DNA from: a virus
IMG/VR virus record: IMGVR_UViG_3300045988_159075
Span: 1 to 10,967 of that record
DNA: 10,967 bases
Strand: one strand, 5' to 3'
The translations under genes were made by a program, and so were the position numbers. The notes under the pieces were generated by a model. That model did not search any database, had not been told where the DNA came from, and was given only the letters and a program-made list of their open reading frames with translations. Position 1 is the first letter of the stretch. Each line of letters opens with the position of its first letter. This document shows, piece after piece, positions 1-10,967 of the stretch.

Positions 1-66
1 TATTTCTTAATACCTCATACGGGTAGTTATATTTCTTAATACCTCATACGGGTAGGTAGGGTAGGT
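1..66. repeat. Tandem direct repeats of a 29-bp unit (ATTTCTTAATACCTCATACGGGTAGTTAT), 2 copies, decaying into GGTAG micro-repeats.
   Basis: Copy 1 at 2-30 and copy 2 at 31-59 (period 29). The second copy ends ...CGGGTAGGTAGGGTAGGTAC, i.e. GGTAG x3-4. The same unit makes up the last 80 nt of the window. Confidence 0.9.
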
Positions 67-93
67 ACTATAGGCAAGATTTCCCCACGATAT

Positions 94-107
94 GTTTCAC
101 GTGAAAC
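94..107. repeat. Perfect 14-bp palindrome GTTTCACGTGAAAC at the centre of a larger imperfect palindrome (29-160).
   Basis: GTTTCACGTGAAAC equals its own reverse complement. It sits between the direct repeat units (left) and an inverted repeat unit (right). Confidence 0.9.
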
Positions 108-124
108 AACGCAACTATACACGA

Positions 125-160
125 CTATAGTAACTACCCGTATGAGGTATTAAGAAATAT
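125..160. repeat. Inverted copy of the 29-bp repeat unit plus the CTATAG box.
   Basis: 132-160 AACTACCCGTATGAGGTATTAAGAAATAT is the exact reverse complement of the 29-mer. 125-131 CTATAGT pairs with TACTATAG at 66-73. Confidence 0.9.
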
Positions 161-5192: not shown

Positions 5193-6257
5193 ATGAAAAA
5201 ACAAATTAATTATGATAACGCAAAAAAATACTTATTTGAAAAAGATATTTTCATTAATAATTATATTGCGTATATGTTTGACAGAACCCAAAAAATGTTT
5301 AAATATGAAAATTTACCCGAATCAATACCGCAAAGAATACTTGAATATATGTTACAGAAAAATGGCAATGTCTTTATTACCAAGGTTAACGGTAAATTAT
5401 ATGCTTTTAATGGTGGTTTGGGTGGTGTACCTAACGAATATTACGAACCGACAATTTACACGGTAACAAATCCATATCTTGAAATATCTGAAAATTATAA
5501 AATTGATATTGACGGCATATTGTTTAGAAATGATTCTATGATGATAGGATTATTGCCGATATTTACAAAATCCGCCTTTATGAATTGCGATTGTGAAATT
5601 ACATTGAATATGTTATCAATTCTTTTTAGAGTTCAATATATGCTGACTGCTAGCGATGATAAAAGTAAAACAAGTGCCGAAATGTTTATGCAGAAGTTAA
5701 AGAATGGTGATATGTCTGTTGTTGCAGATTCACAATTTTTTGAAGGTGTAAAACTTCAATCTTATAACGGAAGTGAGCATATTATTGAGCAGATGATAGG
5801 ATTATCTCAATACATCAAGGCTAGCGCATTGAACGATATAGGATTAAACGCTAATTTTATTATGAAAAAAGAGCGGTTAATCACAAGTGAAATAAATGTT
5901 AATGAAAGTGCATTACTACCGTTTATTGAAAATATGCTTGAAGAGCGAAAAAAAGCGATTGAAAAAATAAATGCCATGTTTGGAACAGATATAAAAGTTG
6001 AATTATCGTGTGTATGGAATGAGCAAGTAAAAACACATGAGGAAAATATTATTGAAGAAAATAATAAAATTGAAGATTCAGAAAAGACTGATGAAGATTC
6101 AGAAAAGACTGATGAAGATTCAGAAAAGACTGATGAAGATTCAGAAAAGACTGATGAAGATTCAGAAAAGACTGATGAAGATTCAGAAAAGACTGATGAA
6201 GATTCAGAAAAGACTGATGAAGATTCTAAACGAAAAGGCGGTAAAAATGACATATAA
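5193..6257 (+). CDS. Portal/head-tail connector protein (phi29 gp10-like) with a C-terminal 7x DSEKTDE acidic tandem repeat.
   Basis: YENLPESIPQRILEYMLQKNGNVF...NGGLGG and NANFIMKKERLITSEINVNESAL parallel remembered phi29 gp10 WENLPPTINPSFLEKS...CNGAL and [21 protein letters not shown]. GGAG Shine-Dalgarno 6 nt before the ATG. The acidic C-terminus resembles that of phi29 gp10. Confidence 0.8.
   Translation: MKKQINYDNAKKYLFEKDIFINNYIAYMFDRTQKMFKYENLPESIPQRILEYMLQKNGNVFITKVNGKLYAFNGGLGGVPNEYYEPTIYTVTNPYLEISENYKIDIDGILFRNDSMMIGLLPIFTKSAFMNCDCEITLNMLSILFRVQYMLTASDDKSKTSAEMFMQKLKNGDMSVVADSQFFEGVKLQSYNGSEHIIEQMIGLSQYIKASALNDIGLNANFIMKKERLITSEINVNESALLPFIENMLEERKKAIEKINAMFGTDIKVELSCVWNEQVKTHEENIIEENNKIEDSEKTDEDSEKTDEDSEKTDEDSEKTDEDSEKTDEDSEKTDEDSEKTDEDSKRKGGKNDI
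6072..6226. repeat. Perfect 21-bp tandem repeat (GAAGATTCAGAAAAGACTGAT), about 7.4 copies, in frame within the portal gene's 3' end.
   Basis: Copies start at 6072, 6093, 6114, 6135, 6156, 6177 and 6198, with a partial copy at 6219-6226. No mismatches. The repeat encodes (E)DSEKTD heptads and leaves all three forward frames and the reverse strand open. Confidence 0.95.
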
Positions 6258-6834
6258 TAATTTATTTTCAAATACTGATGTTATATCAGCACTAAAAAAT
6301 GCTGATAATGTAAAATTTAATGAAATATTTGGTGAAAATTATGATTCAGTCATATTAGACGGCTATATTAAGTTTACTATGGGTGAATATGAATGCACTG
6401 ATAAAACAATTGAAAGTTTCAATAAACAAGGTATAGAAAATATTTGTAAATGGCTATGGCTAAAATATTATGACAGTTGGAAATCTTTGTTAAAAAGTTT
6501 AGCGGTTAGTTATGAAAATTCAGATAGTGAAAATGAAACTATTGAACATACTCAAAATATGCAGTCAACATCAGTATCAACTAGTACAGATACAAATAAA
6601 GTTTTTGCCTATGATAGCGAAACTGCTAGTGATAATACTTTGAATGATACAACTAATGATAATAACGGTACTAATAATTTAACCGAAAAAACAACAAGAA
6701 ATAAAACAGGATATAATTACGGTTCGTCATTATTTGATTTGATTAAAAAATACAATGATTTTCAAATTGAAAATACTTTCGTTGACATTATTTCAAAAGA
6801 TGTTATAATGTTTTTATGCCATACTATAATTTAG
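6247..6834 (+). CDS. Hypothetical morphogenesis-module protein (195 aa), possibly a collar, adaptor or scaffold protein.
   Basis: ATG 6247 preceded by AAAGGCGG. The portion of the track ORF upstream (6037-6246) is an out-of-frame read through the portal repeats. The C-terminal half is Ser/Thr/Asn/Asp-rich and low-complexity. TAG stop. It sits after the portal gene, where phi29 has the lower collar. Confidence 0.6.
   Translation: MTYNNLFSNTDVISALKNADNVKFNEIFGENYDSVILDGYIKFTMGEYECTDKTIESFNKQGIENICKWLWLKYYDSWKSLLKSLAVSYENSDSENETIEHTQNMQSTSVSTSTDTNKVFAYDSETASDNTLNDTTNDNNGTNNLTEKTTRNKTGYNYGSSLFDLIKKYNDFQIENTFVDIISKDVIMFLCHTII
6782..6809 (+). promoter_or_regulatory. Perfect-consensus sigma-A promoter with extended -10, the likely late (capsid/tail operon) promoter.
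   Basis: -35 TTGACA at 6782-6787, a 16-nt spacer, then TGtTATAAT at 6801-6809. It lies in the 3' end of the 195-aa ORF, 38 nt upstream of the small-peptide gene's start. Confidence 0.6.
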
Positions 6835-6846
6835 GAGATAAAAATC

Positions 6847-7029
6847 ATGGATGAAAAGAAAAAAACACAGATTAAAAACGCATTTACTACATTTGTCAAG
6901 GCGTTGATTCCCCCTATAATTGCGCTAATATCCGCTATCCTCACAACTATTGTAAGCGGTGATAATATAGCAGTTGCTACTTCAGTTGGAGCAGTTGCAG
7001 GATACGTCGCTAATAACGTTGTAGGATAA
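6847..7029 (+). CDS. Small hydrophobic glycine-zipper membrane peptide (60 aa), holin-like candidate.
   Basis: Strong Shine-Dalgarno AGGAGA 8 nt upstream of the ATG. Basic N-terminus MDEKKKTQIKNAF, then a hydrophobic segment, then a Gly/Ala/Val-rich segment (VATSVGAVAGYVANNVVG). TAA stop. Confidence 0.6.
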   Translation: MDEKKKTQIKNAFTTFVKALIPPIIALISAILTTIVSGDNIAVATSVGAVAGYVANNVVG

Positions 7030-7032
7030 ATT

Positions 7033-7197
7033 ATGGACAAATTATTCAAGACATTATTGAAAGTAGGAACAACAGTTGCAGCAGTTGTAATATCTAACGC
7101 TTGCGGAGTTGATAAAAACATGGCTATTGCAATCGGTTCTGTTGTAGGTTCTACCGTTAGCGGTACGTTTGATTTATCTATTAAAGATGGAAAGTAA
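7033..7197 (+). CDS. Paralogous small hydrophobic glycine-zipper peptide (54 aa).
   Basis: Same architecture (MDK..., two short hydrophobic Gly/Ala/Val segments AAVVISNACGV / AIAIGSVVGSTVSG). Same reading frame as the upstream peptide, one stop plus one codon apart. AGGAT Shine-Dalgarno. Confidence 0.55.
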   Translation: MDKLFKTLLKVGTTVAAVVISNACGVDKNMAIAIGSVVGSTVSGTFDLSIKDGK

Positions 7198-7202
7198 ATA
7201 AA

Positions 7203-8384
7203 ATGAAAGTTGAACAGATACATACAATTGTAAATGAAATAACAAAAGAATTGCTTGGCGAAACCGCTGTAGTAAATGAAGATTTGTCAAATATTGTTGA
7301 CATAGGCCAGACCTTATTTGATTCAACAAGCGTTGACAATTATGTTAAAACACTTTGCGACCATATCGGCAAAGTTGTTTTTGTTAACCGCTCATACGCT
7401 GGTAATGTTCCTAGCGTTTTAATGGACGGTTGGGAATACGGTTCGGTACTTGAAAAAATAAGTGCAGATATTCCCGAAGCAAAAGAAAATGAAACGTGGG
7501 AACTTACGAATGGTCAAAGTTACGATGTTAACGTGTTCTACAAGCCGACAGTTGCAACAAAGTTCTTCAATAAGAAAGTAACTTTTGAAATACCAATGTC
7601 ATTTACAGAAAAACAGGTTAAAGGTTCATTCAGTTCTGCTGAACAGATGAACGGTTTTCTGTCTATGATTCAGAACGCCGTTGAAAAGTCAATGACTGTT
7701 AAAATTGATTCTCTTATTATGAGAACAATCAACAATATGACGGCACAGACGGTTGTCAACGCTTTTGGAGTAGTTGACGCTGATACAGGCTATTCTGAAA
7801 AAAACAGTGTAAGGGCGGTTAACCTTTTGAAACAGTACAATGACAAGTTCGGCGGTGCATTGACCGCTGAAAAATGTTTGACAGACCCTGCATTTATCAG
7901 ATTTGCAACTTACACAATTTCATTGTATAGGGATAGACTTAGTAAAATATCTAACCTTTTCAATATTGGCGGTAAGTCAAGATTTACTGCAAATGATATG
8001 TTGCATACAGTTTTACTTGCGGATTTCAAGGCAAGCGCAACGGCGTATCTTGAAAGTGATACATTTCACAATGACCTTGTAAAGTTGCCTAATTCTGAAA
8101 CTGTACCGTATTGGCAGGGTAGCGGAACAAGTTACGGATTTGCGGATGTTTCTTCTATTGATGTTAAGACGCCGAACCTTAAGGCCGAAGGAACTGTTGA
8201 TGTGAAACTTAGCGGTATTTTAGGTGTTATGTTTGACCGGGACGCTTTGGGCGTTGCTAATCTTGACAGAAGAGTAACAACAAACTACAATGCAAAAGCA
8301 GAATTTTACAACAATTATTATAAATTTGATGCAGGTTATTTTAACGACACAAACGAAAACTTTATTGTATTCTTTGTAGCCTAA
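7203..8384 (+). CDS. Major capsid protein, phi29 gp8-like (HK97 fold), 393 aa, without a C-terminal BIG2 domain.
   Basis: DNYVKTLCDHIGKVVFV matches remembered gp8 NDFITSLVDRIGLVVIR. FSSAEQMNGFLSMIQNAVEKSMTVKIDSL matches [27 protein letters not shown]. Shorter than phi29 gp8 (448 aa). Followed by a strong terminator. Confidence 0.8.
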   Translation: MKVEQIHTIVNEITKELLGETAVVNEDLSNIVDIGQTLFDSTSVDNYVKTLCDHIGKVVFVNRSYAGNVPSVLMDGWEYGSVLEKISADIPEAKENETWELTNGQSYDVNVFYKPTVATKFFNKKVTFEIPMSFTEKQVKGSFSSAEQMNGFLSMIQNAVEKSMTVKIDSLIMRTINNMTAQTVVNAFGVVDADTGYSEKNSVRAVNLLKQYNDKFGGALTAEKCLTDPAFIRFATYTISLYRDRLSKISNLFNIGGKSRFTANDMLHTVLLADFKASATAYLESDTFHNDLVKLPNSETVPYWQGSGTSYGFADVSSIDVKTPNLKAEGTVDVKLSGILGVMFDRDALGVANLDRRVTTNYNAKAEFYNNYYKFDAGYFNDTNENFIVFFVA

Positions 8385-8444: not shown

Positions 8445-8876
8445 ATGAAAATTAATTTTTATAATTATACAGGTAAAAAAAATGTTATTCAAAAAACATT
8501 AGATAATCCGACGGAAAAAGATATTTTATTAAAAAATGATTTTTCAGAAATTGAAACATCAATTTTATTAAAAGATAATATATCTTTTAATTATTTGGAA
8601 TTACCTACATTAAAAAGATTTTATTTTATAAAAAACAAAACTATTTTAAGAACTGATTTAATACGAATTGATTTATCATTAGATGTATTAATGACTTATA
8701 AAGAAAATATATTAACATCAAAAGCAGTCATAATTGAAAGTGAAAATCCTAATATTAATGATATGACACATTCAACAAACAAAACAACAGAAGTAATAAA
8801 ATACGTATTTCCAAATAATCCGATAGATTACAATGGAAATATATCAATGGCTTGTATAAATGGGAGCATAGAATAA
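8445..8876 (+). CDS. Hypothetical protein (143 aa), possibly a neck or tail accessory protein.
   Basis: ATG 8445 just after the terminator. Its TAA stop overlaps the start of the tail gene (TAATG coupling). Confidence 0.55.
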   Translation: MKINFYNYTGKKNVIQKTLDNPTEKDILLKNDFSEIETSILLKDNISFNYLELPTLKRFYFIKNKTILRTDLIRIDLSLDVLMTYKENILTSKAVIIESENPNINDMTHSTNKTTEVIKYVFPNNPIDYNGNISMACINGSIE

Positions 8877-10897
8877 TGGCTAGAATACTTAGTATTAAAG
8901 TTGCTGATGATATTTTTAAAAATGGTACTGACGCATATATTAATTATAGTAGAAACGGATTTACAGGAAATATATCTACATCAAAAGAGGATACACTACC
9001 ATTATCAGCTTCTTTTGTACGTAATGACTATACACAAAATACTATCCCCGATTTAGGAATAGTCGTTAAAAACACTGATATAATCACAGATATATCAAAA
9101 ATGATTCTTAAAGGTGAGAATATCAATATTGAAAATATTACAACCGAGGATAAAATAACATCAACAGGAAGACATAGATTATTATTACATATACCCGAAA
9201 ATATAATTGTAAATCAAAATGCAACTATTACAATAAGCGGTGATTTTATTCAATATCCTGTTGAAAACCCTAAAATAACACCAACATATAATTTAACTAA
9301 TTGTTCAATATCACCACAACCAACAGAAATAAATAACGGTGATGAAATAACTTTTACAGTGTCTAAAAATAATGATACGGATATTTTTACAAACATACCT
9401 AATATTAACGGAAAAATTGACGGTGTAACATTTTCAAATGATTTTACATTAGATACAAATGGTAACTATATACTAACTAAACAATTTAATTTTACTGACG
9501 CTAACAATACTGAAATAACTATAAACGCCATTGCAAACACTATAGAAATTACACCGACAATAACAATTGAAGGTTCAACAGTCAAAATCCGCCCTAATAT
9601 TAGCGGCGGTGAATATGTAACTACATTAAAAAACGGTGTTGAATATTTAATTGAAACTGAAAGTGATAATCTAAACGGATATTTTTTTAAATCTATTCCT
9701 AAAATAATAGTTAAAATAAACGGTGTTTCAGAAACTATTAATATGTTAGACCAATATCCCGAAGCAACAAATAAAACTAAATATTATTTAGTGAAAACTT
9801 TTAATTTTAAATCTGAAAATGATACTGTAGATGTTATTGCGATAGCAACAGATACAATTATTATAGAACCAATATATAATATAGACCATTGTACAATAAA
9901 CCCAAAACCATTATTTATAAAACCTAAACAGGAATATACATTTAATGTAAAAGCCGATGAAGGATTTATATTTAAAACTACACCATATTTAAACCTTAAA
10001 TTAGACGGTTTAGAAAGTACAGTTACATTTGATAAAGTAGATGATTACACATTTACATTAACATATACATTTAATTTTATTTCTACAGGTTCAACAAGTA
10101 TAGAATTTAATTTATTCGCTAAATCTGAAAACAATCCGATAGCCCAAAAATACGGCTTTATAACATTATATAGCCCGACCACAAAAGAACTAATAGCAAT
10201 ATCAAGAAAAAGACTTCTAAAAGTTGCTAGTTCTAATGAAGGTTACGCGGATATTGATTTAGGGCAATATATTACTTCATTAAAAAGAATATTTTGTAAA
10301 ATTCCAACAGATGAATCTGAAAATGTTGTATTAGGTATTTTTAACACGGGTGTTTCTTGTAAATCAATACCAAATGACAATATAGAATTATCTTTCGGTG
10401 ATGTACAATGTAACGGTTATTATAATAATTCCCAAGATTTGACAGATACATCAATACAGATTTTATTACCATTTTGCAATGTAATTGATATTGAAACTAT
10501 TAATATTAATTCTAAAATTACTGTTAAAATGAATGTTAATGTTCTAAGTGGTAACGCAACAGTGCATATATATTCAGATGACATTTTAATAAAAACAGTT
10601 GATACAAATATTTCAATTAAAATACCATATACATTATATGGTCAAGTATCACAAGAATTAAGTGTACATAACCAAAGACAAAATGACAATGCGATATTTG
10701 AAATAATACCACAGATTATTGTATATGAAAAAATAAACAATAATAGTCATAATGTATATAATACTTCTAAATATGATTTAATTTCAAATGAAAAAGGCTT
10801 TTTCAGAATTGAGCATATAGAAATGAATATGAACATGAAAAGCGACGAATACGAATTAATAATAAATGAATTGAAAAACGGTTGTTATATTTCTTAA
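8876..10897 (+). CDS. Large tail/receptor-binding structural protein (673 aa from ATG 8876) with tandem Ig-like modules.
   Basis: ATG 8876 preceded by GGGAG at 9-nt spacing; the track's TTG 8852 start is an extension. Two clear ~90-aa repeats (ITPTYNLTNCSISPQP...EITFTV... and IEPIYNIDHCTINPKP...EYTFNV...) plus a third degenerate module. It is the only large ORF left for tail functions, and its TAA stop lies inside the terminal repeat array. Confidence 0.7.
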   Translation: MARILSIKVADDIFKNGTDAYINYSRNGFTGNISTSKEDTLPLSASFVRNDYTQNTIPDLGIVVKNTDIITDISKMILKGENINIENITTEDKITSTGRHRLLLHIPENIIVNQNATITISGDFIQYPVENPKITPTYNLTNCSISPQPTEINNGDEITFTVSKNNDTDIFTNIPNINGKIDGVTFSNDFTLDTNGNYILTKQFNFTDANNTEITINAIANTIEITPTITIEGSTVKIRPNISGGEYVTTLKNGVEYLIETESDNLNGYFFKSIPKIIVKINGVSETINMLDQYPEATNKTKYYLVKTFNFKSENDTVDVIAIATDTIIIEPIYNIDHCTINPKPLFIKPKQEYTFNVKADEGFIFKTTPYLNLKLDGLESTVTFDKVDDYTFTLTYTFNFISTGSTSIEFNLFAKSENNPIAQKYGFITLYSPTTKELIAISRKRLLKVASSNEGYADIDLGQYITSLKRIFCKIPTDESENVVLGIFNTGVSCKSIPNDNIELSFGDVQCNGYYNNSQDLTDTSIQILLPFCNVIDIETININSKITVKMNVNVLSGNATVHIYSDDILIKTVDTNISIKIPYTLYGQVSQELSVHNQRQNDNAIFEIIPQIIVYEKINNNSHNVYNTSKYDLISNEKGFFRIEHIEMNMNMKSDEYELIINELKNGCYIS

Positions 10898-10967
10898 TAC
10901 CTCATACGGGTAGTTATATTTCTTAATACCTCATACGGGTAGTTATATTTCTTAATACCTCATACGG
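10888..10967. repeat. 2.76 tandem copies of the same 29-bp unit; the last 51 nt are identical to window bases 1-51.
   Basis: Copies start at 10888, 10917 and 10946 (the last truncated by the window end). The array overlaps the tail gene's stop codon at 10895-10897. Confidence 0.9.

What the first reader, a model, noticed from the sequence alone, without database searches (positions are those of the whole stretch)
6072..6226. Perfect 7.4-copy 21-bp tandem repeat encoding a (DSEKTDE)n acidic tail on the portal protein
Zero mismatches across copies imply recent slipped-strand expansion or ongoing length variation. The period of 21 keeps the frame, so copy number directly tunes the length and charge of the portal's disordered C-terminus. 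In phi29 gp10 the corresponding acidic C-terminus faces the capsid interior and the DNA. A length-variable poly-acidic portal tail is not a described feature of phi29-like connectors. It could affect packaging, genome retention or ejection, or simply be a hypervariable locus useful for strain typing.
Basis: seen in the sequence. Interest (0 to 1): 0.6.

Follow-up and report, generated by a model that had tools for sequence, protein, structure and literature searches.

The report
Hypervariable acidic repeat tail on portal
The portal protein of this tiny phi29-like gut phage ends in a floppy, strongly negative tail built from seven identical 7-residue repeats. Related phages show that repeat number changes faster than anything else in the genome, while the acidic character of the tail is kept across the whole clade.

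Summary
Window 6072-6226 is a perfect 21-bp x 7.4 tandem repeat, in frame in the 354-aa portal gene (5193-6257). It encodes (DSEKTDE)7 after the conserved connector fold.

The slippage inference is supported by relatives. Sister phages at about 81-84% nucleotide identity carry the same 21-bp unit in 0 to about 13 copies. Three 10.7-kb genomes differ by 0-1 substitutions plus one or two repeat units. No other genome of the window's own species was found, and a 155-nt perfect array may not be spanned by short reads, so "7" is unverified.

The tail is not a peculiarity of this genome. All 177 astrithr-like portals examined, at GC 28-54%, have a net-acidic tail of about -0.29 charge per residue. 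Several cultured phages examined show it too. Many lineages have their own unrelated in-frame acidic repeats. Tandem arrays are about 29-fold enriched in tail-coding DNA, and every period is a multiple of 3.

AlphaFold gives the tail pLDDT about 30. Solved phi29-type connectors have only 13-23 residues there.

Most likely this is a disordered polyanionic brush on the capsid-interior face of the portal, selected for composition. Copy number is close to neutral. The physical role is inferred, not shown.

The parts
5193..6257 (+). Portal (upper collar connector) gene, 354 aa
   Evidence: PF05352, 61 bits. PHROG 2038, E 1e-40. phi29 gp10 by sequence and by fold. Syntenic with the portal genes of astrithr, Phanie and K58 g2.
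5241..6005 (+). Conserved connector core (residues 17-271)
   Evidence: Extent of the Pfam match. Parts of the core are modelled confidently: residues 21-130 and 241-270 have pLDDT of about 82-96. Residues 131-240 are weak, at about 39-67. W275 is invariant in 123 of 123 clade members.
6009..6086 (+). Predicted last helix of the fold (residues 273-298), running into the first repeat unit
   Evidence: DSSP on the AF2 model, with pLDDT falling from about 70 to below 50. The segment xEQVKTHEENxIEENNKI is conserved within the genus.
6018..6254 (+). Acidic C-terminal tail (residues 276-354): 79 aa, 36 D/E, 13 K/R, net -23, pI 4.08
   Evidence: Residues 296-354 have pLDDT of about 30 and no secondary structure.
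6072..6226 (+). Perfect 21-bp tandem repeat, 7.4 copies, encoding (DSEKTDE)7
   Evidence: The same unit, GATTCAGAAAAGACTGATGAA, occurs in variable copy number in L007, L009-L013 and in the P0121-P0145 alleles.
6235..6249 (+). Shine-Dalgarno-like AAGGCGGT, spacer and ATG of the downstream gene, embedded in the last portal codons. This explains the conserved 'KGG' near the portal C-terminus.
   Evidence: AAAGGCGGT(G/A)AAAAATG is conserved in all genus members except L008, which has a diverged AAGGTGGTGAAAATG lying after its portal stop. In 9 of the 13 distant loci that have both a GG motif and a candidate downstream ATG, the GG codons lie 11-19 nt upstream of that ATG.
6247..6834 (+). Downstream 195-aa gene, in the scaffold-like position between portal and capsid protein. 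It is acidic (net -13) and overlaps the portal stop by 11 nt.
   Evidence: It is called as a 195-aa gene in all relatives. There is no Pfam or PHROG hit.

Best explanation
The repeat is a coding minisatellite inside a clade-conserved, intrinsically disordered, polyanionic C-terminal extension of a phi29-type portal.

Shown: the 21-bp unit is shared with sister phages, and its copy number changes in whole-unit steps faster than point substitutions accumulate anywhere else in the genome. The seven identical copies here are therefore a recent expansion or homogenisation.

Inferred: the steps arise by replication slippage or unequal recombination. Each unit contains a small TCAG-N6-CTGA hairpin, and protein-primed strand-displacement replication exposes long single strands, which could help.

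Shown: selection acts on composition, not on sequence or exact length. Tails in this clade are always net acidic, at about -0.29 charge per residue, across GC 28-54%. They are built from unrelated repeat units in different lineages and range from about 20 to 170 residues.

Inferred from homology to phi29 gp10: the tail leaves the wide, capsid-interior end of the dodecamer. Twelve tails would then form a negatively charged, flexible brush around the inner mouth of the DNA channel.

Inferred mechanism, committed to at low confidence: the brush keeps packaged DNA from crowding or sticking to the crown, and leaves the channel mouth and the genome end free for exit. Within wide limits, copy number is nearly neutral.
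For: Repeat and coding frame.

Portal identity and end of the fold.

Disorder: residues 296-354 have pLDDT of about 30 and no secondary structure. The heptad has no hydrophobic positions.

Same unit, different copy number: 3 copies in L009, 5 in L007, 6 in L013, 2-4 perfect units in L010-L012, up to 13 in P0127, and 0-1 in P0128 and P0121.

Near-identical genomes differing only at the repeat:
- L010 vs L012: 0 mismatches and one 21-nt gap over 10,690 nt.
- L010 vs L011: 1 mismatch and a 21-nt gap.
- L011 vs L012: 1 mismatch and a 42-nt gap.
- L009 vs L013: 2 mismatches over 3.7 kb, with 3 vs 6 units.

Clade-wide acidity:
- 123 close homologues: tails average 63 aa, net -18, -0.28 per residue (sd 0.07), with a near-neutral core.
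- 54 further portals from genome assemblies at 30-50% identity: every one is net negative, mean -0.29 per residue, GC 28-54%.
- Cultured astrithr, Phanie and K58 g2 show the same.

Repeat hot spot: 27 TRF arrays in 11.2 kb of tail DNA against 37 in 452 kb elsewhere, about 29-fold. All 27 periods are multiples of 3.

Protein-level constraint: there are synonymous differences between units (TCA/TCT, AAG/AAA, GAT/GAC), while the acidic positions are kept.

Interior location of the phi29 C-terminus: PMC10191066.
Against: - No experiment or structure places this tail or shows what it does. The brush function is inference from charge, disorder and homology.
- Alleles with one heptad are the most common in the best-sampled sister cluster (5 of the 12 full-length portals listed in cluster 2). 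A long tail is therefore dispensable, and it may have little function beyond a short acidic stub.
- Twelve tails carry only about 276 net charges against about 22,000 DNA phosphates, so any effect must be local.
- Polymorphism is shown in sister species from short-read assemblies, not in the window's own lineage.
- Copy-number calls in perfect arrays can be affected by assembly.
Confidence: 0.6

Rival explanations
1. Adaptive tuning. Copy number is selected to set tail length and charge, and thereby adjusts packaging density, genome retention or ejection force.
For: The period of 21 preserves the frame, so each step adds net -3 per subunit, or -36 per dodecamer. Alleles from 0 to 13 copies exist. 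The phi29 literature proposes the flexible C-terminal region as a gating trigger contacted by packaged DNA (PMC10191066).
Against: - Genomes identical over 10.7 kb carry 2, 3 or 4 perfect units with no compensating change.
- The modal allele has a single heptad.
- One heptad per virion equals the charge of 18 bp of DNA, and all tails together about 1.3% of the genome's charge.
- There is no correlation between contig length and tail length or charge in 40 contigs of 10-15 kb (rho -0.17, p 0.30). This is a crude proxy.
Confidence: 0.1
2. Functionless low-complexity DNA. The tail is tolerated junk generated by slippage in an AT-rich genome, with no selected role.
For: There is extreme length variation (about 20-170 aa) and no sequence conservation between lineages. 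Short alleles are common. GAA, GAT and AAA codons are favoured at 25% GC.
Against: - All 177 tails examined are net acidic. Charge density is tightly distributed (sd 0.07-0.09), regardless of GC from 28 to 54% and regardless of repeat unit.
- No tail is basic, hydrophobic or absent.
- Neutral slippage in AT-rich DNA would also yield K/N/I-rich tracts. The +1 frame of this very repeat is (KIQKRLM)n.
- Solved phi29-type connectors lack such a tail, so it is a gained and retained character of the clade.
Confidence: 0.15
3. Specific binding module. The polyanionic tail acts as a DNA mimic. It would bind a basic partner: the terminal protein at a genome end, the lysine rings of the portal's own channel (a plug), or a DNA-binding scaffold surface. 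It would be displaced when DNA enters.
For: The candidate terminal protein upstream of PolB is basic (ORF 1020-1613, net +7, pI 9.4). phi29 scaffold is reported to bind DNA (review PMC11476376). phi29 connector channels carry positively charged lysine rings (PMC10191066). From my own knowledge, acidic disordered tails that mimic DNA are a known device in SSB, T7 gp2.5 and HMGB1.
Against: - There is no conserved motif in the tail. The only recurring motif, KGG, is explained by the downstream gene's ribosome-binding site.
- The protein in the scaffold position is itself acidic (net -13).
- Nothing here tests binding.
Confidence: 0.12
4. Assembly artefact, or a DNA/RNA-level element rather than a protein feature. 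Candidates are a mis-assembled array, iterons, a promoter or terminator, a structured RNA, or coding in another frame or strand.
For: - A perfect 155-nt array is at or beyond typical short-read length, so the count of 7 may be wrong.
- ORFs run through the repeat in the +1 frame (6037-6834) and on the minus strand (5807-6271).
- The RNA folds somewhat better than shuffles (z -3.4).
Against: - The same unit is assembled independently in many samples and by several assemblers. This includes alleles with diverged units that cannot be collapse artefacts.
- The +1 ORF is open only in the window, because of a 1-nt shorter A-run. It is closed in all nine relatives checked.
- Promoter-like sites are at chance level, and there are no terminators.
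- There is no Rfam match.
- Distant lineages keep acidity, not DNA sequence.
Confidence: 0.03

Closest known systems
Bacillus phage phi29 gp10 connector (PF05352; PDB 1H5W, 1FOU, 6QYJ) and the GA1 and phiCPV4 portals (7PV2, 7PV4)
   Same: Same family by HMM, by sequence (E 6e-13, query 21-287 aligned to gp10 24-296) and by fold (Foldseek E 1e-13, TM 0.62 on target length). In phi29 the C-terminus lies at the wide end inside the procapsid and is flexible (PMC10191066).
   Different: Solved connectors are 301-309 aa and end 13-23 residues after the aligned region. This protein continues for 67-83 residues with a repetitive, strongly acidic, hypervariable tail.
Portals of cultured Astrithrvirus-like phages: Salmonella phage astrithr gp06 (YP_009857582), Acinetobacter phage Phanie (CAI8715813) and Vibrio phage K58 g2 (CAL9955011)
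   Same: The genome is about 11 kb with the same gene order. The portal core is 40-47% identical. Each has a long acidic low-complexity C-terminal tail; K58 g2 has a (PE)n run.
   Different: The tail sequences are unrelated. Those examined are not perfect tandem arrays. There is no nucleotide similarity by megablast and about 67% identity over 1.2 kb by blastn. The window has 25% GC and comes from the gut-metagenome branch of the clade.
C-terminal crown or barrel extensions of other portals (the P22 gp1 barrel; the T7 gp8 crown, whose last 42 residues are unresolved)
   Same: Each is a C-terminal extension of the portal that projects into the capsid interior. In T7 it is partly disordered and thought to order only on contact with internal proteins (PMC6702177).
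   Different: The P22 barrel is a long helical assembly (my own knowledge). Here no helix is predicted beyond residue 298, the heptad has no hydrophobic a/d positions, and the sequence is a hypervariable polyanion.
Coding minisatellites (VNTRs) and acidic disordered tails (SSB, T7 gp2.5, HMGB1)
   Same: There are head-to-tail in-frame units with stepwise copy-number polymorphism between otherwise identical genomes. The segment is highly charged and disordered.
   Different: No phase-variable on/off switching is possible, because the period is a multiple of 3. No partner-binding terminal motif was found. The comparison to SSB-type tails rests on my own knowledge and is functional analogy only.

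Membership tests
Phage connector / upper collar protein (Pfam PF05352, phi29 gp10 type) | Sequence match to the family HMM above the curated threshold | tested here: met
   61 bits against a cut-off of 25.6, residues 17-271. PHROG 2038, E 1e-40.
Phage connector / upper collar protein (Pfam PF05352, phi29 gp10 type) | Portal fold matching solved phi29-type connectors | tested here: met
   The AF2 model's best Foldseek hits are 6QYJ, 1H5W, 7PV2 and 7PV4 (E 1e-13 to 7e-9, TM on target 0.59-0.63). The model's overall pLDDT is only 64.7, because of the tail and residues 131-240.
Phage connector / upper collar protein (Pfam PF05352, phi29 gp10 type) | Dodecameric ring at a unique capsid vertex, with the C-terminus inside the capsid | not testable with these tools
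   Inferred from homology and from PMC10191066.
Genus Astrithrvirus | Nucleotide identity at genus level to Astrithrvirus astrithr. The usual ICTV criterion is about 70% across the genome (my own knowledge). | tested here: not met
   No megablast match to any of 50,697 phage records. blastn aligns only 1.2 kb at 67%. Gene order and the portal, capsid and polymerase proteins are homologous, so this is a related but separate lineage.
Coding minisatellite (VNTR) | Head-to-tail copies with a period that is a multiple of 3, inside an ORF | tested here: met
   Period 21, 7.4 copies, 100% identity. In frame.
Coding minisatellite (VNTR) | Copy-number polymorphism among otherwise near-identical genomes | tested here: met
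   Met for sister species: L010, L011 and L012, and L009 against L013, and the 7-aa length ladders inside 90% clusters. For the window's own species it is untestable, because only one protein sequence is on record.
P22-type portal barrel (helical C-terminal extension) | A long alpha-helical, coiled-coil-forming C-terminal segment | tested here: not met
   No helix is predicted beyond residue 298, and pLDDT is about 30. DSEKTDE has no hydrophobic heptad positions.
Intrinsically disordered acidic tail (functional analogy only) | High net negative charge, few hydrophobic residues, no predicted structure | tested here: met
   Net -23 over 79 aa, pI 4.08. pLDDT is about 30. The median hydrophobic fraction of clade tails is 5%.
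Intrinsically disordered acidic tail (functional analogy only) | Binding to a basic partner or DNA-binding surface | not tested
   No tool here tests binding. The candidate partner, the terminal protein, is basic.

The most novel reading that the evidence does not exclude
The polyanionic tail is an active part of the packaging and ejection machine in a large, uncharacterised clade of ~11-kb gut phages. It would be a tethered DNA mimic that plugs the lysine-lined portal channel, or captures the basic terminal protein at a genome end. Its runaway repeat turnover would then reflect diversifying selection, for example escape from host defences that sense portal proteins, or adaptation to ionic conditions, rather than neutral slippage.
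Probability: 0.1. Interest if true: 0.7.

Novelty: new variant of a known kind. Interest (0 to 1): 0.45.

Why it matters
The protein is an ordinary phi29-type portal and the mutation process is ordinary slippage. Three things are worth knowing.

1. A whole clade of very small tailed phages carries a long polyanionic portal tail. The clade includes cultured Salmonella, Acinetobacter and Vibrio phages and hundreds of gut-metagenome genomes. The solved phi29-type connectors lack this tail, and I could not find it described.

2. The tail is repeatedly rebuilt from unrelated in-frame acidic repeats. This is a clean natural example of selection on charge composition without sequence conservation.

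3. In genomes that are otherwise identical over 10.7 kb, the repeat is the only thing that differs. This makes it a ready strain-typing marker.

Nature has also provided an allelic series of 0 to 13 heptads. With a cultured relative, that series would allow a direct test of what a portal's interior extension does. The practical caution is that short-read assemblies will often miscount such arrays.

Tried and rejected
- Same-species relatives of the window. Megablast against phages found nothing. An exact 36-nt repeat pattern in IMG/VR found nothing. An exact-protein contig look-up for P0001 is not on record. Protein-seeded scans of viral and metagenome contigs returned only 82%-identical or more distant loci. 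Population polymorphism in the window's own lineage could therefore not be tested.

- Overlapping gene in the +1 frame (ORF 6037-6834, (KIQKRLM)n fused to the downstream gene). Rejected: the frame is closed in all nine relatives checked. It is open here only because an A-run is 1 nt shorter. The minus-strand ORF 5807-6271 (SSSVFSE)n has no support either.

- A conserved basic 'KGG(E/K)K' tip as a protein motif. Rejected: it is the Shine-Dalgarno sequence of the downstream gene read in the portal frame. This holds in the genus and in 9 of the 13 distant loci that have both a GG motif and a candidate downstream ATG.

- Promoter, terminator or known RNA in or around the repeat. Promoter-like sites are at shuffle level, there are no terminators, and there is no Rfam hit.

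- Coiled coil, single alpha-helix or barrel. There is no predicted helix in the repeat and there are no hydrophobic heptad positions.

- Bulk-charge or packaging-density tuning.

- Host assignment from MAG bins. Relatives are binned with Christensenellaceae, Prevotella, Methanobrevibacter, Melainabacteria and others. This looks like mis-binning of whole small phage contigs, so it is uninformative.

- Literature. Searches for Astrithrvirus, Phanie, portal acidic tails and portal tandem repeats found no description of this feature. The library is incomplete, so absence is not proof.

It was rerun without them.

I do not rely on it. The phi29 comparison in this report rests on the PDB search.
Full report
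**What is in the sequence.** TRF finds one outstanding array at 6071-6226: period 21, 7.4 copies, 100% matches, no indels, score 312. The bases can be read directly. It lies in the ORF 5193-6257 (+), 354 aa. In that frame it reads GAT TCA GAA AAG ACT GAT GAA seven times, giving (DSEKTDE)7. This is followed by DSKRKGGKNDI and the stop codon.

**What the gene is.** The ORF is a phi29-type portal, also called the upper collar connector.
- Pfam PF05352: 61 bits against a cut-off of 25.6, residues 17-271.
- PHROG 2038: E 1e-40, residues 7-296.
- phmmer to phi29 gp10 (1H5W): E 6e-13, query 21-287 aligned to gp10 24-296 of 309.
- An AlphaFold model built on 54 homologues has phi29, GA1 and phiCPV4 connectors as its best Foldseek hits (E 1e-13 to 7e-9).

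The window as a whole is a small phi29-like genome. It encodes PolB, a gp16-type ATPase, the portal and a phi29-type capsid protein. It has about 25% GC. Gene order matches Salmonella phage astrithr, Acinetobacter phage Phanie and Vibrio phage K58 g2, whose portals are 40-47% identical. There is no nucleotide-level match to any deposited phage.

**The tail.**
- After the invariant W275 the protein continues for 79 residues, with 36 D/E and 13 K/R (net -23, pI 4.08). The 275-residue core is near neutral.
- AF2 predicts a last helix at residues 273-298. Residues 296-354 then have pLDDT of about 30 and no secondary structure.
- The heptad has no hydrophobic positions, so a coiled coil or barrel is not expected.
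- In the three solved phi29-type connectors, only 13-23 residues follow the end of the aligned region.
- In phi29 the C-terminus sits at the wide end, enclosed in the procapsid, and is described as flexible (PMC10191066).
- By homology, twelve tails would therefore project into the capsid interior around the channel mouth. This placement is inferred, not shown.

**Is copy number variable?** Yes, in every sister lineage that could be examined. A protein search found 839 homologues. The closest, at 69-87% identity, carry the same heptad in different numbers.

At the DNA level the unit GATTCAGAAAAGACTGATGAA is shared:
- L009 has 3 units.
- L007 has 5, alternating ACT and ATT.
- L013 has 6.
- L008 has a long degenerate array.

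These genomes are 80-84% identical to the window.

Within clusters of at least 90% protein identity, portal lengths form 7-aa ladders:
- 312, 326, 340, 347 and 396 aa, corresponding to 1 to 13 heptads. The single-heptad 312-aa allele is the commonest, at 5 of the 12 full-length portals listed in that cluster.
- 338, 345 and 352 aa.
- 326 and 347 aa.

The sharpest result comes from L010, L011 and L012, complete 10.7-kb contigs from three assemblies, one of them a Hadza gut sample at 2473x coverage. They differ by 0-1 substitutions over the whole genome, plus a 21- or 42-nt gap that removes exactly one or two repeat units. L009 and L013 likewise differ by three units and 2 substitutions in 3.7 kb. 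In these phages the repeat locus changes about as fast as the rest of the genome put together.

Two caveats apply.
- I do not know whether the three assemblies are from independent cohorts.
- All are short-read assemblies. Their perfect tracts (42-84 nt) are short enough to be spanned by reads. The window's 155-nt tract may not be, so its count of 7 is unverified. No second genome of the window's own species was found.

**The acidic tail is a clade character, not a local oddity.**
- Astrithr (425 aa), Phanie (361 aa) and K58 g2 (358 aa, with a (PE)n run) all have long acidic low-complexity tails.
- Over 123 close homologues, tails average 63 aa, net -18, and -0.28 charge per residue (sd 0.07).
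- An independent set of 54 complete portals from genome assemblies, at 30-50% identity and GC 28-54%, is without exception net negative. Its mean is -0.29 per residue and its length range is 22-171 aa.
- Many lineages have their own repeats: (PDPTAE)n, (DEPVEA)n, (TDTETD)n, (EDDP)n, (PEQEQET)n and others.
- TRF finds 27 arrays in 11.2 kb of tail-coding DNA against 37 in 452 kb of the remaining locus DNA, about 29-fold. All 27 periods are multiples of 3.

Three observations point to selection on protein composition rather than on DNA sequence or AT bias:
- Acidity is kept across a two-fold GC range and across unrelated repeat units.
- The +1 frame of this repeat would be basic.
- Units differ synonymously while keeping their acidic positions.

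**Things that looked interesting but are explained.**
- The ORF 6037-6834 reads the repeat as (KIQKRLM)n and runs into the downstream gene. That frame is closed in all nine relatives checked. The window simply has one fewer A before the downstream ATG, which also changes the portal's last residues from ...GGEK to ...GGKNDI.
- The recurring 'KGG' near portal C-termini is the Shine-Dalgarno sequence of the downstream gene (AAAGGCGGTGAAAAATG) read in the portal frame. In 9 of the 13 distant loci that have both a GG motif and a candidate downstream ATG, the GG codons lie 11-19 nt upstream of that ATG.
- There is no promoter or terminator signal above chance and no Rfam family.
- The repeat RNA folds a little better than shuffles (z -3.4), because each unit contains UCAG-N6-CUGA. 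This may favour misalignment on the long single strands produced by protein-primed strand-displacement replication. That link is inference.

**How it most likely works.**

Shown:
- This is a coding minisatellite in a disordered polyanionic portal tail.
- Copy number turns over rapidly in whole-unit steps.
- Composition is conserved, but not sequence or length.

Inferred:
- The twelve tails form a flexible negative brush on the interior face of the portal. The brush would keep DNA from crowding the crown and leave the channel mouth and genome end free.
- Within wide limits, the number of repeats is close to neutral.

The tuning idea is weak for four reasons.
- Identical genomes carry different copy numbers.
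- The commonest sister allele has one heptad.
- All twelve tails together hold about 276 net charges against about 22,000 phosphates.
- Tail length does not track contig length (rho -0.17, p 0.30, a crude test).

A pure junk model is hard to square with 177 of 177 tails being acidic. A specific DNA-mimic or partner-binding role cannot be excluded. The candidate terminal protein is basic (net +7), and the protein in the scaffold position is acidic (net -13). However, the tail has no conserved motif that would support such a role.

**Comparison with the known.** The protein is a member of PF05352 by sequence and fold. It is not a member of the genus Astrithrvirus by nucleotide identity. The tail does not meet the defining feature of a P22-type helical barrel. 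It resembles the unresolved C-terminal end of the T7 portal crown (last 42 residues invisible; PMC6702177). It also resembles acidic disordered tails in general, but only by analogy. A 2024 review of phi29-like phages that covers Astrithrvirus and Phanie never uses the word 'acidic' (PMC11476376). My other literature searches found no description of a long or variable acidic portal tail. The searchable library is incomplete.

**Verdict.** The feature is real, not unique to this genome, and of moderate interest. It is a new variant of a known kind: a phi29-type portal with a clade-wide, convergently rebuilt, hypervariable polyanionic tail. Its function remains inferred.

Noticed in passing
window 1-160 and 10874-10967: A 29-bp unit (TATTTCTTAATACCTCATACGGGTAGTTA) occurs twice in direct orientation at the left end (1-58) and three times at the right end (10880-10967). 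An inverted copy lies at 131-160. Window 55-143 matches both ends of relatives L004 and L008 in inverted orientation. This looks like the inverted terminal repeat of a protein-primed genome, combined with a wrap-around or fold-back in the assembly. The true termini and the copy number of the 29-bp unit are uncertain.
   Followed up: partly
L010, L011, L012 (whole loci): Three 10.7-kb phage genomes from three ENA assemblies (ERZ28613985, ERZ4560067 Hadza gut at 2473x coverage, ERZ27287290) are identical apart from 0-1 substitutions and the portal repeat. This is an unusually conserved, apparently widespread or abundant gut phage. I could not establish whether the samples are independent.
   Followed up: partly
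window 6037-6834 (+) and 5807-6271 (-): Long ORFs read through the repeat in the +1 frame ((KIQKRLM)n, continuous with the downstream gene) and on the minus strand ((SSSVFSE)n). The +1 frame is open only here, because of a 1-nt shorter A-run before the downstream ATG. That same change alters the portal's last residues (KNDI instead of EK).
   Followed up: yes
window 8852-10897; L007 9210-10421; L013 9159-10835: The last large gene, a presumed tail or receptor-binding protein, is 681 aa here but 403-405 aa in L007, L008 and L010-L012, and 558 aa in L013. It has no Pfam or PHROG hit. No endolysin was recognised among the ORFs I scanned, whereas astrithr, Phanie and K58 g2 annotate one. Complete-looking 10.5-kb relatives also end right after this gene.
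   Followed up: no
window 7195-8371 compared with L004 and L008: The capsid-protein region is only about 70-72% identical to L004 and L008, while the rest of the genome is about 82-83% identical. L008 to L014 carry an extra 93-aa ORF before a 380-aa capsid protein; the window and L007 have a 393-aa protein and no such ORF. This suggests mosaic exchange of the capsid module.
   Followed up: no
L057 7930-8427; L059 7865-8098; L031 1690-1875; L047 1502-1679: Other strong in-frame tandem arrays occur outside the portal in distant relatives. One is a 24-nt x 20.8 array in L057. Another is a set of 66-nt arrays a few hundred bases downstream of the portal gene, inside the gene that follows it. Repeat-rich low-complexity segments may be a wider habit of these phages' structural genes.
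   Followed up: no
L015-L076 (record titles): Whole-genome-sized contigs (about 10-14 kb) of this phage clade are binned into MAGs of very different organisms: Christensenellaceae, Prevotella, Methanobrevibacter, Melainabacteria, Spirochaetia, Anaeroplasma. This almost certainly reflects mis-binning, so MAG taxonomy is not a guide to host.
   Followed up: no
window 6847-7029 (+): A 60-aa ORF between the 195-aa gene and the capsid gene is strongly hydrophobic (…ALIPPIIALISAILTTIVSG…AVAGYVANNVVG). It is conserved as a 60-aa gene in all close relatives and may be a membrane protein or holin-like protein.
   Followed up: no
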